IMG/VR virus record: IMGVR_UViG_2802429251_000007
Coordinates: 1-30,664 of that record
Length of the DNA stretch: 30,664 nt
Reading direction: 5' to 3' (one strand)
From: a virus
Taxonomy: Duplodnaviria > Heunggongvirae > Uroviricota > Caudoviricetes
The translations under genes were made by a program, and so were the position numbers. Positions 7,755 to 11,964 of this stretch are shown piece after piece; position 1 is the stretch's first letter, and each line of letters opens with the position of its first letter. The notes under the pieces are model-generated. The model had not been told where the DNA came from. It saw only the letters and a list, made by a program, of their open reading frames with translations, and ran no database searches.

Positions 7755-8504
7755 ATGGCAAAACCGGACTGGGAGGCCATCGAATCGGCATACCGGGCCG
7801 GAGTCCTTAGCCTCCGTGATATAGGCGAGAAATACGGCGTAACAGAAGGGGCTATCAGGAAGAGGGCTAAAAAGCTTGGTTGGGTACGCAGTGGCGGTAC
7901 GCAGGTTTGCAAAAATGGTACGCAAAAAAGAAAAGTGCGTACCAGCAGAAAGCCTGCCATTACTGACCTTACACAAAAAGGTACGCAACCAAAAACAGAA
8001 CCTACACCGGATACGAAACCGATACGCGGAATGCGTACCGATCCCCCGACTAACCCATTCCAACCCGGTAACCAGCAGGCATTAAAACACGGTGGTTATG
8101 CCCGTCGCCTTCTGCTCAAAGATGAGGTGATAGAGGATGCTAAAGCGTTGACGCTCGAGGACGAATTATTTCGCCTTCGTGCTAACAACCTTGTCGCTGC
8201 AGAGAATATTGGTCGGTGGTTGGTGTCGCTGGAAGATGCTAATGGGGACCAGGAAAGGAAGATGCTGATGGAAAATATCAGCGCCGCCGAGAAAGCAATG
8301 ATGCGCAATACAGTTCGTATTGAGTCCATCGTTGGCACGCTTGCGACGGTAGGAAAAATATTTGCTGATACAGCCTACCGCAAGGCCGCCACTGATAAGG
8401 TGTCTCTGGAGGCTGATCGTCTTCGCCGTGATGCAGGTATTGATGATGGCAATGGAGAGCGTGACCTCAATGACTTCTACTCTGACATCCAAACCGACGC
8501 TTAA
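7755..8504 (+). CDS. terminase small subunit
   Basis: N-terminal HTH-like segment (LSLRDIGEKYGVTEGAIRKRAKKLGW); immediately upstream of large terminase; GAGGA RBS. Confidence 0.7.
   Translation: MAKPDWEAIESAYRAGVLSLRDIGEKYGVTEGAIRKRAKKLGWVRSGGTQVCKNGTQKRKVRTSRKPAITDLTQKGTQPKTEPTPDTKPIRGMRTDPPTNPFQPGNQQALKHGGYARRLLLKDEVIEDAKALTLEDELFRLRANNLVAAENIGRWLVSLEDANGDQERKMLMENISAAEKAMMRNTVRIESIVGTLATVGKIFADTAYRKAATDKVSLEADRLRRDAGIDDGNGERDLNDFYSDIQTDA
7883..8039. repeat. cluster of six GGTACGCA/TGCGTACC octamers inside terS (candidate pac or terminase-binding site)
   Basis: Copies at 7883, 7896, 7917, 7980 (direct) and 7936, 8032 (inverted). Confidence 0.5.
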
Positions 8505-9873
8505 TCCGGCTTTACGTAGTTTCTGGACTACGCGGGCACGTAACAAAGTGCTTTATGGTGGCCGGTCATCGTCAAAATCATGGGATGCCGCTGGCATTGC
8601 CATATTTCTGTCGAATAAATACACCCTGCGTTTTTGTTGTGCCCGTCAGATCCAGAATAAAATCGAAGAGTCGGTGTATACCCTGCTCAAAATTCAGATA
8701 GACAGGTTTGGCCTGCGGCACCGTTTCCGGATTCTGAACAACAAAATCATTAACCGGGTTACTGGCTCGGAATTTGTTTTTTATGGATTATGGCGCAACA
8801 TCGAAGAAATTAAGTCACTGGAGGGGATCGACGTGTTGTGGCTGGAAGAAGCCCACGCACTGACTGAATACCAGTGGAAAATTCTGGAGCCAACGATCCG
8901 TAAAGAGGGTTCGGAATGCTGGTTCATATTCAACCCCGGACTTGTTACTGATTTCGTCTGGCGTAACTTCGTTGTTGATCCGCCTGAAGGCACTCTCATC
9001 CGCAAAATTAACTATGACGAAAATCCGTTTCTGTCTGACACCATGCTTAAGGTTATCGACGCGGCGCGACGCCGTGATCCGGATGGTTTTAAACATGTGT
9101 ATGAGGGCGTTCCGGAGTCTGATGATGATGCGGCAATCATCAAACTGTCCTGGATAGAAGCCGCAGTGGATGCGCACAAAACGTTAAATTTCGAACCCAG
9201 TGGAAGAAAGCGTATTGGCTTTGACGTGGCTGACAGTGGTACAGATAAGTGCGCTAACGTTTACCGTCACGGATCCGTTGTTTTCTGGGCCGACGAATGG
9301 AAGGCCAAAGAAGATGAATTACTGAAGAGCTGCCAGCGTACTTATCAGGCGGCGCTGGAGCGTGAAGCAGATATTGTTTACGACTCTATCGGTGTTGGTG
9401 CTTCTGCCGGTGCTAAATTCTCTGAAATTAACGCTGACCGGAAGAGCGAGAATGCATACGCGCGACGTGTGAATTACCAGAGGTTTAACGCCGGCGCTGG
9501 TGTGCATGAACCAGATGACGAATACAACGGCATCCCCAACAAAGACTTTTTCGCAAATCTTAAGGCTCAGGCATGGTGGCTGGTGGCTGACCGTTTCAGA
9601 AATACGTTTAACGCCATTAACAACGGAGAACAGTATCCTGTGGATGAGCTGATCAGCATAGATTCTCGTTGTCCGTTGCTTGAAAAGCTGAAACTGGAAC
9701 TGACAACACCTCATCGTGATTTCGACCGTAACGGACGTGTGATGGTCGAAAGTAAAAAAGACCTCGCAAAACGCGAGATACCGTCACCAAACGTTGCTGA
9801 CGCATTCATTATGGCCTTCGCGCCAATTGATACATCGCTGGATATCTGGGAACAGCTGGGGAGACAGGCCTGA
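8443..9873 (+). CDS. terminase large subunit
   Basis: Walker A-like YGGRSSSKS, ATPase and nuclease motifs by eye; start ambiguous (ATG at 8443, 8452 or 8470). Confidence 0.85.
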   Translation: MMAMESVTSMTSTLTSKPTLNPALRSFWTTRARNKVLYGGRSSSKSWDAAGIAIFLSNKYTLRFCCARQIQNKIEESVYTLLKIQIDRFGLRHRFRILNNKIINRVTGSEFVFYGLWRNIEEIKSLEGIDVLWLEEAHALTEYQWKILEPTIRKEGSECWFIFNPGLVTDFVWRNFVVDPPEGTLIRKINYDENPFLSDTMLKVIDAARRRDPDGFKHVYEGVPESDDDAAIIKLSWIEAAVDAHKTLNFEPSGRKRIGFDVADSGTDKCANVYRHGSVVFWADEWKAKEDELLKSCQRTYQAALEREADIVYDSIGVGASAGAKFSEINADRKSENAYARRVNYQRFNAGAGVHEPDDEYNGIPNKDFFANLKAQAWWLVADRFRNTFNAINNGEQYPVDELISIDSRCPLLEKLKLELTTPHRDFDRNGRVMVESKKDLAKREIPSPNVADAFIMAFAPIDTSLDIWEQLGRQA

Positions 9874-11342
9874 TGGCACGAAACAAACAAGCCCTGCGGC
9901 GAACTGCGCAGGCCACAGCTGATGGTTATGAGAATTTTATTGCCCGCGTAGGGATGCAGACACCTAACCAGCACTCAGCATCCACCTACCGGGCTAATTT
10001 TACCAGTCGTAACCGCATGCTGGTGGAATGGTCCTATCGTTCATCCTGGATCATCGGCGAAGCAGTCGATGCTATCCCGGATGATATGACCCGCAAAGGC
10101 ATTCGCATCACTTCGGAAATTGATGCAAAAGATCGCGGCATTCTCGAATCACAACTTGATGAGTTGCAAATCTGGGATGCGCTGAATGACGTGCTGAAAT
10201 GGTCTCGTCTCTATGGCGGTGCGGTTGGCTTCATCATGATCGAGGGGCAGGCACCAATGACCCCGCTGCGGCTCGAAACCATTGGAGAAGGCAAGTTTAA
10301 GGGCATTCTCCCGCTCGACCGCTGGATGATTAACCCGGTGCTGACCCGCCGCATTAAAGAGATGGGGCCGGATCTCGGCAAACCTGAGTTTTACGATGTG
10401 GTGACCACTGCAACGGGCATCCCGGCCTGGCGCATCCATCACAGCCGCCTGATTCGCTTCGATGGCGTCACGCTGCCATTCCAGCAGAAGATGACCGAGA
10501 ACGAATGGGGAATGTCGGTTGTAGAGCGAATCTGGGATCGGCTTACTGCGTTCGACAGCGCCACTGTCGGCGCGGCTCAGCTGGTCTACAAAGCGCATCT
10601 GCGCACCTACAGCGTGGAGAAGCTGCGCGAGATTATCGCGCTTGGTGGCCCAGCTTTCGAAGCGTTGCTGAAGAACATCGACCTGATCCGCCAGTTCCAG
10701 AGCAATGAAGGCATGACGCTCATGGACTCGCGGGATAAGTTTGAAACGCATCAGTACAGCTTCAGTGGTCTGGATGACATCCTATCGCAGTTTGCAGAAC
10801 AGATTAGTGGCGCTGTTGGTATTCCACTGGTGCGGTTGTTCGGACAGTCCCCGAAAGGATTTTCTACCGGTGATGCAGATCTTGCCAACTATTACGACCG
10901 GGTGAGCTCATTGCAGGAGCGCCGCTTACGGATGCCGATGCGCCGGATACTGGACATTATGCACCGCTCGGAACTCGGTAAGCCGCTGCCGGACGATTTC
11001 ACGTTTGAGTTTAACCCGCTCTGGCAAATGTCTGATGTCGATCGCTCAACGGTGGCGTTAAACACTACCAACGCAATCAGTACGGCGCTGGGTGATGGTC
11101 TGATGACACTGAAAGCCGCTATGACCGATTTGCGCGAAAATTCTGACGTAACCGGCATCGGGGCATCCATTACCGACGAGGACATAGAGAATGCCGAAGA
11201 CGAAGCGCCGCCAGGCATCGGCGAACTTGGCGACAAACCGCCAGAGTCGCCAGGCGGAGATCCGATATCGAACGAGCCTACGGCAGATAGCGCGGGCGGT
11301 CGGGGATATCGTAAATGGGCGCTACGATGGTTCAAACGATAG
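9873..11342 (+). CDS. portal protein
   Basis: 489 aa directly after large terminase; acidic C-terminus; GGGGAG RBS. Confidence 0.75.
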   Translation: MARNKQALRRTAQATADGYENFIARVGMQTPNQHSASTYRANFTSRNRMLVEWSYRSSWIIGEAVDAIPDDMTRKGIRITSEIDAKDRGILESQLDELQIWDALNDVLKWSRLYGGAVGFIMIEGQAPMTPLRLETIGEGKFKGILPLDRWMINPVLTRRIKEMGPDLGKPEFYDVVTTATGIPAWRIHHSRLIRFDGVTLPFQQKMTENEWGMSVVERIWDRLTAFDSATVGAAQLVYKAHLRTYSVEKLREIIALGGPAFEALLKNIDLIRQFQSNEGMTLMDSRDKFETHQYSFSGLDDILSQFAEQISGAVGIPLVRLFGQSPKGFSTGDADLANYYDRVSSLQERRLRMPMRRILDIMHRSELGKPLPDDFTFEFNPLWQMSDVDRSTVALNTTNAISTALGDGLMTLKAAMTDLRENSDVTGIGASITDEDIENAEDEAPPGIGELGDKPPESPGGDPISNEPTADSAGGRGYRKWALRWFKR

Positions 11343-11964
11343 CGTAACCGAAATAATGGATGCGCTGGAGCGCTACAGCGAAATCATCACCCCCTGGGCG
11401 ACGAAGGTAGCTGAGAACTTTACCGCAGACATAGCGCGCCAGAATGAAAAGCAGTGGCGTCAACACAGCCGGAACATCAGCGCAGAGCTGCGCAACATGG
11501 TCGACCGCGCCCCGGTAGGCCAGGTGATGAAATCCATCGTCGCCGAGCAAATTAAGTACATCAAGTCACTGCCTCTTGAGGCCGCCGATCGGGTGTATGA
11601 CATTCAGAACAAGGCCATCGAGGCCGTTGTGTCTGGTGGCCGCGCTGAGCCATTCGCGAAAGAGATAGCTGCGTCCGGTGACGTGTCACGCTCACGAGCG
11701 AACCTTATCGCCCGTACTGAACTTGGACGTGCAACCGGCGCGCTGGATCAGGCGCGTGCGCTGTCAATCGGCTCGAATGGTTATATCTGGCGTACAGCCG
11801 AAGATGGCGACGTCCGGCATTCTCATCGGGAGATGGAAGGTAAGTTTGTCGAATGGGGCAAACCTCCAACGCTTGATGGCATGACCGGTCACGCTGGCGA
11901 GCTCCCGAATTGTCGCTGTTATAAAGAAATCGTTTTTCCCACCTCCCATTCTTATCCCGCCTGA
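11191..11964 (+). CDS. head morphogenesis protein, Mu F/SPP1 gp7-like
   Basis: C-terminal IARTELGRA...WRTAEDGDVRHSHREMEGKFVEWGKPP...PNCRCY typical of MuF-like proteins; start uncertain (11191 overlaps portal by 152 nt; alternative ATG 11356). Confidence 0.7.
   Translation: MPKTKRRQASANLATNRQSRQAEIRYRTSLRQIARAVGDIVNGRYDGSNDSVTEIMDALERYSEIITPWATKVAENFTADIARQNEKQWRQHSRNISAELRNMVDRAPVGQVMKSIVAEQIKYIKSLPLEAADRVYDIQNKAIEAVVSGGRAEPFAKEIAASGDVSRSRANLIARTELGRATGALDQARALSIGSNGYIWRTAEDGDVRHSHREMEGKFVEWGKPPTLDGMTGHAGELPNCRCYKEIVFPTSHSYPA

What the first reader, a model, noticed from the sequence alone, without database searches (positions are those of the whole stretch)
11191..11356. About 150-nt two-frame overlap between portal 3' end and MuF-like gene 5' end
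Both frames are open across 11191-11342: the portal frame encodes an acidic tail and the other frame encodes MPKTKRRQASANLATNRQSRQAEIRYRTSLRQIARAVGDIVNGRY. Either the MuF-like gene starts at 11191 with an unusually long overlap, or at ATG 11356 after the portal stop. A long dual-coding overlap would be unusual.
Basis: seen in the sequence. Interest (0 to 1): 0.22.

Follow-up and report, generated by a model that had tools for sequence, protein, structure and literature searches.

The report
Real portal / MuF gene overlap
In this prophage head-assembly module, the last 50 codons of the portal gene and the first 50 codons of the next gene (a MuF-type minor head protein) share the same 152 bases in two reading frames, and related genomes indicate that both readings are real and under selection.

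Summary
The portal ORF (9873-11342) and the MuF-like ORF (11191-11964, +1 frame) are both open over 11191-11342.

Open frames in one sequence prove little: each has about a 5% chance of being open by accident. The comparative evidence decides it.
- **MuF residues upstream of Met56 are coding.** Residues ~18-55 are conserved down to ~40-50% identity, including in lineages where the portal gene ends before them.
- **ATG 11356 is not the start.** It has no Shine-Dalgarno sequence and is missing in 6 of 40 distinct enterobacterial relatives.
- **ATG 11191 is the likely start.** It sits 8 nt after a GAGGA, and an equivalent ATG or GTG is kept in 35 of 40.
- **The constraint switches frame.** Variation peaks at the portal wobble position upstream and at the MuF wobble position from ~11251.
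- **The portal tail is also constrained.** MuF synonymous sites in the overlap are unusually conserved: rare CTA and ATA codons, invariant TAC that avoids a portal TGA, and GAT-GGT that encodes portal Trp-Phe. These sites change in the one relative whose portal stops early.

This is a genuine, conserved co-directional overlap of about 150 nt. It is uncommon but of a known kind. Database annotations disagree on the start (257, 245, 202 or 176 aa). No expression data exist.

The parts
9873..11342 (+). Portal gene (489 aa; PF06381 Phage_portal_3/DUF1073; TIGR01555 HI1409 family)
   Evidence: The closest solved relatives (Pam3 and E217 portals) align only up to residue ~451.
11191..11964 (+). MuF-like minor head protein gene, long form (257 aa). 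The PF04233/TIGR01641 domain covers residues 137-243. The N-terminal half is family-specific.
   Evidence: phrog_324 aligns residues 5-255. Homologue alignment A1.
11191..11342 (+). Dual-coding overlap of 152 nt: portal residues 440-489 plus stop, and MuF residues 1-51, offset by +1
11178..11182 (+). Shine-Dalgarno GAGGA for the MuF start, built from portal codons Asp-Glu-Asp (gac GAG GAc)
   Evidence: Sequence. Duplex energy with the anti-SD is -5.2 to -6.1 kcal/mol. It precedes the start equivalent to 11191 in all 35 of the 40 distinct relatives that keep that start.
11191..11193 (+). Most likely MuF start codon ATG (portal codons aAT Gcc, Asn-Ala). It is the first start after the in-frame TAG at 11185-11187.
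11227..11229 (+). Alternative in-frame start TTG (Leu13). This is the start used in the 244/245-aa NCBI protein models.
   Evidence: It has a weak SD (-2.1 to -2.5 in close relatives), and 17 of 40 relatives have no start codon at positions 11-15.
11356..11358 (+). Internal Met56 codon. This is the start used in the 202-aa annotations. It is not the gene start.
   Evidence: No SD in most relatives (dG near 0), and the ATG is absent in 6 of 40. The residue is not conserved. The upstream residues are conserved.
11191..11250 (+). 5' sub-zone of the overlap, where both peptides are weakly constrained. The acidic, Pro-rich portal linker (EDEAPPGIGELGDKPPES) is read in +1 as the basic MuF N-terminus (PKTKRRQASANLATNRQS).
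   Evidence: All three codon phases are variable here (0.32-0.47). The reading of both frames comes from the sequence.
11251..11342 (+). 3' sub-zone of the overlap. The MuF frame dominates (its conserved helix-forming segment and the YDGSNDS motif), while MuF synonymous sites are additionally constrained by the portal frame.
11322..11342 (+). Conserved portal C-terminal motif Leu-Arg-Trp-Phe-Lys-Arg plus the TAG stop. In relatives the stop sits at one of three adjacent codons.

Best explanation
The MuF-like minor head protein gene starts inside the portal gene. The most likely start is ATG 11191, served by the GAGGA at 11178-11182. Bases 11191-11342 are therefore translated in two frames. One frame gives the last 50 residues of the portal protein: a disordered-looking acidic, Pro/Gly-rich linker ending in ...DSAGGRGYRKWALRWFKR. 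The other gives the first 51 residues of the MuF-like protein: a basic N-terminus followed by the conserved segment AEIRYRTSLRQIARAVGDIVNGRYDGSND.

Shown here:
- Both frames are open and homologous across relatives.
- The MuF N-terminal segment is ancestral. It is present and conserved in lineages without the overlap.
- The dominant codon-phase constraint switches from the portal frame to the MuF frame at about 11251.
- The portal frame still constrains MuF synonymous sites and its own stop position.

Inferred:
- The overlap arose when the portal tail came to be read across the 5' end of the MuF gene, or the two genes were telescoped together.
- The genetic code made this easy. Acidic GAN codons read in the +1 frame give ANG codons (Lys, Thr, Arg, Met). 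An acidic portal tail and a basic MuF N-terminus are therefore mutually compatible, and Asp/Glu codons supply a Shine-Dalgarno sequence.
- Initiation inside an actively translated ORF should keep MuF synthesis low relative to the portal protein. [quoted passage not shown]
For: (1) MuF coding upstream of 11356.
- Alignment A1 shows near-invariant G38, I40, Y45, D46, S48, N49 and I55 in homologues at 61-97% identity.
- phrog_324 aligns from residue 5.
- tblastn in 73 genomes starts at query residue 1-26, even at 42-53% identity in Alpha-, Beta- and Deltaproteobacteria and in Acidobacteria.
- In lineages where the portal stops before this segment, it is still encoded and conserved. Examples are L047, L050-L052, L054, L055, L060 and L071-L073, some with 4-nt ATGA overlaps and L054 with none.

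(2) Start codon.
- An ATG equivalent to 11191 is present in 32 of 40 distinct enterobacterial sequences, and a GTG in 3 more. All have an SD of -5.2 to -6.1 kcal/mol.
- The other 5 (Xenorhabdus) have their own ATG at position 5/6 behind GGGGAG.
- A start at position 13/14 exists in only 23 of 40.
- The ATG at 56 is missing in 6 of 40 and mostly lacks an SD.
- In phage vB_EcoM-606R2, Met56 is Ile.

(3) Phase switch.
- Diversity by codon phase in the portal-only region is 0.23/0.14/0.56, highest at the portal wobble.
- In 11251-11342 it is 0.40/0.15/0.19, highest at the MuF wobble and near its lowest at the portal wobble.

(4) Portal-frame constraint.
- MuF wobble diversity is 0.40 in the overlap against 0.58 outside. 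22% of wobble sites are near-invariant inside against 2% outside (Mann-Whitney p = 1.3e-5, same sequences).
- Specific codons are fixed: L30 CTA 33/36, I33 ATA 35/36 (background 14-17%), Y45 TAC 36/36 (TAT would create a portal TGA), D46 GAT 34/36 and G47 GGT 34/36 (these encode portal Trp-Phe).
- T at stop-creating wobble sites is 0% in the overlap against 33% outside. T at harmless sites is 20% in the overlap against 29% outside.
- The portal stop falls at MuF residue 46.7-53.7 in 41 of 43 enterobacterial loci.

(5) Natural control.
- In Arsenophonus (L039) the portal stops early, at MuF residue 30.7.
- L039 carries changes at 5 of the 6 otherwise fixed codons.
Against: - There is no expression evidence: no proteomics, N-terminal sequence or ribosome profiling for this phage group. 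The SEN34 paper has none.
- The choice between ATG 11191 and TTG 11227 rests only on SD strength and conservation. NCBI's pipeline often prefers the 245-aa TTG form.
- MuF residues 1-19 are poorly conserved, so they contribute little evidence.
- The stop-avoidance statistic is partly built in, because the overlap is defined by the first portal stop. In one sequence the open run has P of about 0.04-0.07.
- The sequences are phylogenetically related. The wobble comparison is internal to the same tree, but the counts are not independent events.
- The AlphaFold model was too poor (pLDDT 53) to show that residues 20-55 pack into the fold.
Confidence: 0.8

Rival explanations
1. The MuF-like gene starts at TTG 11227 (Leu13). 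This gives a 245-aa protein and a 116-nt overlap. The ATG at 11191 would be an incidental product of the portal Asn-Ala codons.
For: NCBI protein clusters of 244/245 aa with more than 1000 members use this start. MuF residues 1-12 are weakly conserved. Some relatives have an ATG at position 13 or 14 (L004, L011, L012, L020).
Against: 17 of 40 distinct relatives have no start codon at positions 11-15. The SD in the window and its close relatives is weak (-2.1 to -2.5 kcal/mol, against -5.9 for ATG 11191). A basic M-[PR]-K-x-x-[RH]-R N-terminus recurs in distant homologues such as Arsenophonus and Xenorhabdus.
Confidence: 0.13
2. There is no real overlap. The MuF-like gene starts at ATG 11356 after the portal stop, and the upstream open frame is a chance extension conserved only because the portal gene is conserved.
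For: RefSeq/PGAP and phage records annotate the 202-aa form. The ATG at 56 is present in 34 of 40 relatives. The single-sequence chance of 55 open codons is about 5%.
Against: The codon-phase pattern in 11251-11342 is that of the MuF frame and not the portal frame. The same peptide segment is conserved in lineages where it lies outside the portal gene. Met56 is not conserved and has no SD.
Confidence: 0.03
3. The overlap is real, but the portal tail within it is a non-functional read-through. The portal simply runs on to the first stop, and only the MuF frame is under selection.
For: The extent of the overlap varies widely across distant lineages, with the portal stop anywhere from MuF residue -44 to +56. 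The tail is low-complexity and has no structural homologue. The 5' part of the overlap is poorly conserved in both frames. Arsenophonus has a portal truncated at MuF residue 30.7 in L039, a prophage of unknown activity.
Against: MuF synonymous diversity is reduced, and rare codons are fixed exactly where they specify portal residues (Thr, Ser, Trp, Phe) or avoid a portal stop. These sites change in the one lineage with an early stop. A W-x-x-x-W pattern recurs in betaproteobacterial portal tails (L046, L070).
Confidence: 0.12
4. A programmed +1 frameshift within the overlap produces a portal-MuF fusion protein. This would mimic the natural portal-MuF fusions seen in other phages.
For: PHROG families annotated as portal proteins (phrog_2662, phrog_859) match the MuF part in their C-terminal halves, so such fusions do exist elsewhere. 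The MuF frame is +1 of the portal frame in nearly all loci. An SD-like GAGGA lies just upstream.
Against: A conserved ATG with an SD at canonical spacing explains the element more simply. Reading, I saw no conserved slippery or hungry-codon site. The portal stop moves among three adjacent codons. Lineages with 4-nt ATGA overlaps or no overlap use a different frame relation. The RNA fold around the site is not significant (z = -1.5).
Confidence: 0.02

Closest known systems
MuF / SPP1 gp7 / Mu gpF family of minor head proteins (PF04233, TIGR01641)
   Same: The PF04233 domain scores above the gathering threshold. The gene lies immediately downstream of the portal gene, which is the hallmark context of muf genes (PMC5576092). 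It is a short single-domain form without a toxin module.
   Different: The 5' end of the gene lies about 150 nt inside the portal gene. The N-terminal ~135 residues are outside the Pfam and TIGRFAM models. No solved structure matches by sequence.
Brunovirus SEN34-type prophages (Salmonella phage SEN34, Hafnia phage yong1, Citrobacter phage Omnitron, Escherichia phages vB_EcoM-606R2 and others)
   Same: The portal-MuF region is 82-92% identical in DNA. The overlap, the ATG and the SD are the same. A similar region occurs in 339 of 5426 complete E. coli genomes.
   Different: Their records annotate the MuF gene from the Met56 equivalent or later (202 or 176 aa), so the overlap is not shown. The terminase module of this window differs from that of SEN34.
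[quoted passage not shown]
   Same: Two co-directional proteins are read from one DNA stretch in different frames. One frame is the more constrained, and the other encodes low-complexity, probably disordered sequence.
   Different: This is a terminal overlap between two adjacent structural genes and not an embedded gene. At ~150 nt it exceeds the 60-bp limit above which Palleja et al. found no genuine co-directional overlap in 338 prokaryotic genomes. Both partners are old, conserved families, and neither is a de novo gene.
Natural portal-MuF fusion proteins (phrog_2662, phrog_859)
   Same: They combine the same two functional modules in the same order.
   Different: Here the two are separate polypeptides with their own start and stop. 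No evidence for a fusion was found.

Membership tests
MuF / SPP1 gp7 minor head protein family | Phage_Mu_F (PF04233) / TIGR01641 domain above the curated cut-off | tested here: met
   PF04233 scores 66.9 bits against a cut-off of 29.6, over residues 137-243. TIGR01641 scores 45.4 bits against 39.65.
MuF / SPP1 gp7 minor head protein family | Gene immediately downstream of the portal gene in the packaging/head module | tested here: met
   The order is TerS, TerL, portal, MuF, DUF2213, with further head-module ORFs downstream. The criterion is taken from PMC5576092.
MuF / SPP1 gp7 minor head protein family | Low-copy virion protein bound to the portal | not testable with these tools
   This needs virion proteomics or cryo-EM. 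None was found for this phage group.
Phage_portal_3 (PF06381/DUF1073) portal proteins | Portal domain above the curated cut-off, with solved portal relatives | tested here: met
   PF06381 scores 354 bits. The Pam3 portal 8hds matches at E 9e-36 and E217 gp19 at E 1e-13.
Genuine dual-coding gene overlap | Both reading frames open across the shared stretch in the window and in relatives | tested here: met
   In 41 of 43 enterobacterial loci the portal stop falls at MuF residue 46.7-53.7.
Genuine dual-coding gene overlap | The downstream gene's overlap-encoded residues are homologous to the N-termini of orthologues (Palleja's length criterion) | tested here: met
   The segment is also conserved where it is not overlapped.
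Genuine dual-coding gene overlap | Purifying selection detectable in both frames | tested here: met
   MuF frame: phase pattern. Portal frame: reduced MuF synonymous diversity (p = 1.3e-5), fixed rare codons, stop avoidance, and change of the fixed codons in L039. No formal codon model was run.
Genuine dual-coding gene overlap | Both proteins shown to be translated through the overlap | not testable with these tools
   No proteomic or ribosome-profiling data are available.
Programmed ribosomal frameshift fusion | Conserved slippery site with a stimulator, and no independent start for the downstream frame | tested here: not met
   An independent ATG plus SD is conserved. The portal stop position is variable. 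The local RNA fold is not significant. Slippery motifs were checked by eye only.

The most novel reading that the evidence does not exclude
The overlap may be a selected device and not merely a tolerated accident. One possibility is that the conserved portal C-terminal motif (DSAGG...LRWF[KR]) and the conserved MuF N-terminal helix, co-encoded on the same bases, are physically interacting partners whose co-variation is locked by shared nucleotides. Another is that ribosomes translating the portal tail throttle initiation at the embedded MuF start, which would fix a low MuF-to-portal ratio. Either would make this a built-in stoichiometry or co-evolution mechanism for a portal accessory protein.
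Probability: 0.12. Interest if true: 0.55.

Novelty: new member of a known kind. Interest (0 to 1): 0.33.

Why it matters
There are two practical consequences and one conceptual point.

**Annotation.** The MuF-like head protein of a very common enterobacterial prophage group is annotated with four different N-termini. The group occurs in 339 of 5426 complete E. coli genomes and includes SEN34-type phages. The widely used 202-aa and 176-aa models probably lack 55-81 residues, including one of the best conserved segments of the protein. Anyone expressing this protein, modelling it, or fitting it into cryo-EM density near the portal should use the long form.

**Engineering.** Mutations or edits in 11191-11342 hit two structural proteins at once.

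**Concept.** This is a well-supported example of a co-directional overlap of about 150 nt with selection in both frames. That is well above the ~60-bp limit beyond which a survey of 338 prokaryotic genomes found only annotation errors. It also illustrates how an acidic tail and a basic N-terminus are code-compatible in the +1 register. It does not reveal a new kind of system.

Tried and rejected
- **Structure prediction.** An AlphaFold2 model of the 257-aa protein from the 22-sequence alignment gave mean pLDDT 52.9 and pTM 0.40. That is too poor to judge whether residues 20-55 pack into the fold, so no fold search was run.
- **Solved structures.** A PDB sequence search found nothing for the MuF protein. 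Portal relatives align only to residue ~451, so they say nothing about the tail.
- **RNA structure.** A fold around the start, which could couple MuF initiation to portal translation, gave z = -1.5. 18 of 200 shuffles were as stable. Not pursued.
- **Minus-strand ORF.** The 147-aa ORF at 10892-11335 has internal stops in 22 of 37 relatives and was rejected as spurious. The third + frame has stops at 11288 and 11312.
- **Frameshift fusion.** Considered and given low weight; see the rival explanations.
- **Literature.** The SEN34 paper contains no virion proteomics and no mention of the overlap. A search for papers on a portal/head-morphogenesis gene overlap returned nothing relevant.
- **A corrected error.** My first automatic portal-stop calls were wrong for L034, L039, L063 and L065, because tblastn alignments ran through stop codons. 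They were recomputed.
- **Not used.** The large representative-protein search and a metagenome scan were not run, because the 73 genome loci already answered the question.
Full report
**1. The observation**

The window has a 489-aa ORF at 9873..11342 and a 257-aa ORF at 11191..11964, both on the + strand.
- The first is a portal protein: PF06381, 354 bits; TIGR01555.
- The second is a MuF/SPP1-gp7-type minor head protein: PF04233, 66.9 bits; TIGR01641.
- They share 11191-11342 (152 nt), and the MuF frame is +1 relative to the portal frame.
ATG 11356 is Met56 of the long ORF and lies 14 nt after the portal TAG.
- The gene order is TerS, TerL, portal, MuF, DUF2213, followed by further head-module ORFs.

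In this one sequence the double openness is only mildly unlikely: about 5% for 55 open MuF-frame codons and about 6.5% for 50 open portal-frame codons. The case therefore has to be made comparatively.

**2. What the region belongs to**

The portal-MuF stretch is 82-92% identical to Salmonella phage SEN34 (Brunovirus), Hafnia phage yong1, Citrobacter phage Omnitron and several Escherichia phages. A 601-bp piece spanning the junction is found in 339 of 5426 complete E. coli genomes.

Annotators disagree on the MuF start.
- RefSeq records for E. coli FJ_Ec_21, SEN34 and yong1 use the Met56 equivalent (609 nt, 202 aa).
- vB_EcoM-606R2 uses a still later start (176 aa).
- In the large protein collection the same gene appears as 257 aa, 244/245 aa (the TTG at codon 13, clusters with more than 1000 members), 202 aa and 176 aa.

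**3. The MuF gene does not start at 11356**

- Translating the junction in five relatives shows the upstream ATG and the open frame in all of them. In vB_EcoM-606R2, Met56 is Ile, so the 11356 start does not exist there.
- In an alignment of 22 homologues down to 61% identity, the segment AEIRYRTSLRQIARAVGDIVNGRYDGSNDSVTEI (residues 22-55) is among the best conserved parts of the protein. G38, I40, Y45, D46, S48, N49 and I55 are each at least 90% conserved. Position 56 is M, I, L or Q.
- phrog_324 aligns from residue 5.
- A scan of one genome per species returned 73 loci. tblastn matches begin at query residue 1 in Enterobacterales. They begin at residues 17-26 in Alpha-, Beta-, Gamma- and Deltaproteobacteria and in Acidobacteria, at 38-53% identity.
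- In many of those distant loci the portal gene ends before this segment. L051, L052, L055 and L072 have 4-nt ATGA overlaps, L071 and L073 have 11 nt, and Pseudomonas putida L054 has no overlap. The segment is still present and conserved downstream of the portal stop. It is therefore MuF coding sequence in its own right and ancestral to the family.

**4. Which start**

In the window the MuF frame is closed by TAG at 11185-11187. The only candidate starts are ATG 11191, TTG 11227 and ATG 11356. Counts below are among 40 distinct enterobacterial sequences at 55-100% MuF identity.

| Candidate | Presence in relatives | Shine-Dalgarno |
|---|---|---|
| ATG 11191 | ATG in 32, GTG in 3 (Yersinia) | GAGGA, 8 nt spacer; -5.2 to -6.1 kcal/mol in all 35 |
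| TTG 11227 (position 13/14) | a start codon in 23 | weak in close relatives (-2.1 to -2.5) |
| ATG 11356 (position 56) | present in 34, absent in 6 | mostly none (about 0 kcal/mol) |

The five Xenorhabdus loci have a replaced N-terminus with their own ATG behind GGGGAG.

The SD and the ATG at 11191 are built from the portal codons for the conserved motif I-T-D-E-D-I-x-N-A (gac GAG GAc ... aAT Gcc). That portal motif is also conserved where there is no overlap. The acidic codons thus supplied a ready-made ribosome-binding site.

I take ATG 11191 as the start with about 0.75 probability. TTG 11227 is the main alternative, and the overlap would still be 116 nt.

**5. Selection in the two frames**

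I aligned 36 distinct sequences and measured nucleotide diversity by codon phase.

| Region | portal p1 / MuF p3 | portal p2 / MuF p1 | portal p3 / MuF p2 |
|---|---|---|---|
| Portal only (10803-11100) | 0.23 | 0.14 | 0.56 |
| Overlap 5' (11191-11250) | 0.42 | 0.32 | 0.47 |
| Overlap 3' (11251-11342) | 0.40 | 0.15 | 0.19 |
| MuF only, distal (11501-11790) | 0.58 | 0.23 | 0.13 |

- Upstream, the variable phase is the portal wobble. From 11251 it is the MuF wobble, and the portal wobble becomes nearly as conserved as the most constrained phase. This is the MuF signature, as seen downstream.
- In 11191-11250 all three phases vary. Here the portal encodes an acidic, Pro-rich linker and MuF a basic N-terminus, and neither is well conserved.

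The portal frame is not a mere passenger.
- MuF wobble diversity in 11251-11333 is 0.40, against 0.58 in the MuF-only region. 22% of wobble sites are near-invariant, against 2% (Mann-Whitney p = 1.3e-5; same sequences and same tree).
- The fixed synonymous codons are the ones that matter for the portal reading:

| MuF codon | Count | Background usage | Effect in the portal frame |
|---|---|---|---|
| L30 CTA | 33/36 | not measured | portal Thr |
| I33 ATA | 35/36 | 14-17% | portal Ser |
| A34 GCG | 33/36 | not measured | first base of portal Gly (GGC) |
| Y45 TAC | 36/36 | 60-67% | TAT would create a portal TGA |
| D46 GAT | 34/36 | 47-49% | portal Trp |
| G47 GGT | 34/36 | 32-34% | portal Phe |

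- At wobble sites where T would create a portal-frame stop, T is never used in the overlap, against 33% outside. At harmless wobble sites T is used 20% of the time in the overlap, against 29% outside. This statistic is partly built in, because the overlap ends at the first portal stop.
- The portal stop then appears at one of three adjacent codons, 11334, 11337 or 11340. In 41 of 43 enterobacterial loci it falls at MuF residue 46.7-53.7.
- The portal tail consensus ends ...PT.DSAGG...LRWF(K)(R)*.
- There is a natural control. In Candidatus Arsenophonus (L039) the portal stops early, at MuF residue 30.7. That sequence carries changes at 5 of the 6 otherwise fixed codons (CTG, GTC, GCC, GAC, GGA).
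- Betaproteobacterial portals that also overlap by ~150-165 nt (Pandoraea L046, Cupriavidus L070) keep a similar ...AGGR...QWLS.W tail.

**6. How it probably arose and works (inference)**

The MuF N-terminal segment and an acidic, Pro-rich portal tail both exist in lineages without the overlap. The extent of overlap forms a continuum, with the portal stop anywhere from MuF residue -44 to +56. The two genes have therefore been telescoped to different degrees.

The genetic code makes this cheap. GAN-GAN (Asp/Glu) read one base later gives ANG codons (Lys, Thr, Arg, Met). In the window, GAA GAC GAA GCG CCG CCA (E D E A P P) is read as AAG ACG AAG CGC CGC CAG (K T K R R Q).

Initiation at an SD buried 150 nt inside a translated ORF should be inefficient. 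That would suit a protein needed in few copies per portal dodecamer. [quoted passage not shown] This stoichiometry idea is untested.

**7. Other things checked**

- The minus-strand ORF 10892-11335 is interrupted in 22 of 37 relatives.
- The third + frame is closed.
- No significant RNA structure surrounds the start.
- No PDB homologue exists for the MuF protein, and portal structures stop aligning at residue ~451.
- The AlphaFold model was of low confidence.
- A +1 frameshift fusion is conceivable, because portal-MuF fusions exist in other phages. However, the conserved independent start, the shifting stop position and the lineages with other frame relations all argue against it.

**8. Comparison with what is known**

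The protein is an ordinary member of the MuF family in its hallmark position downstream of the portal gene. The unusual part is the gene arrangement.

[quoted passage not shown] The longest real one they found was 56 bp, holD/rimI (PMC2478687). Their main error class, a 5' extension of the downstream gene, is exactly what this looks like at first sight. Here the orthologue-length test comes out the other way.

Out-of-frame overlaps are well known in phages: phiX174, and lambda Rz/Rz1 (general knowledge). The kind is therefore not new, and gene callers already produce the long model in some records. I found no paper describing this overlap.

**9. Verdict**

- This is a genuine, conserved overlap of about 150 nt with dual constraint. 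It is a new, well-supported member of a known kind.
- Its main practical value is correcting the N-terminus of a very common prophage head protein.
- No expression evidence exists. The exact start (11191 or 11227) and the function of the portal LRWF tail remain to be tested.
- Interest is moderate to low (0.33).

Noticed in passing
window 7755-9873 (TerS 7755..8504; TerL ORF 8362..9873): The TerS and TerL ORFs also overlap in different frames. The overlap is 143 nt if TerL starts at TTG 8362, and about 35-65 nt if it starts at one of the internal ATGs (the MMAMESVTSMTST... region). This window's TerL (Terminase_3 type) is not the SEN34 TerL. Only the C-terminal ~250 residues align, at 36% identity, and the last few residues (IWEQLGRQA against IWELLGRQA) are nearly identical. 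A mosaic junction therefore lies near the TerL 3' end and the portal start, and the portal ATG overlaps the TerL stop at 9873.
   Followed up: partly
L018 (Apirhabdus apintestini CP138906.1), locus 2500-3270: This MuF gene is 97% identical, but its match begins only at query residue 68 and lies in the portal's frame. That indicates a frameshifting indel in the N-terminal part. It is either a decaying prophage or a sequencing error.
   Followed up: no
L022, L024, L025, L027, L031 (Xenorhabdus spp.): These five loci lack the ATG and GAGGA equivalent to 11191. They have a different short N-terminus that starts at an ATG about 5 codons later, behind GGGGAG. The portal still overlaps the MuF gene up to about residue 49-54.
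   Followed up: partly
L039 (Candidatus Arsenophonus triatominarum) locus 2501-2646; L036 (Morganella morganii): These are the exceptions to the fixed portal stop position. Arsenophonus has a premature TAA (overlap about 92 nt), and the downstream wobble sites have changed. Morganella reads 9 codons further, to MuF residue 59.7.
   Followed up: yes
protein P0072 (ENA, 388 aa, from a 2148-nt contig): This predicted protein carries PF09950 together with the PF04233 MuF domain and is 99% identical to the window over the MuF part. It may be a fusion or an assembly or gene-calling artefact.
   Followed up: no
window 10892-11335, minus strand: A 147-aa antisense ORF spans the portal 3' end and most of the overlap. 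It is interrupted by stops in 22 of 37 relatives, so it is very probably not a gene.
   Followed up: yes
L058 (Bryobacteraceae DATGMC010000021.1), upstream of the MuF match: The ORF ending just upstream of the MuF gene does not have a portal-like tail (…AHIIAKHVEAQQDFKLEDL…). An extra gene therefore seems to be inserted between the portal and MuF genes in this lineage.
   Followed up: no
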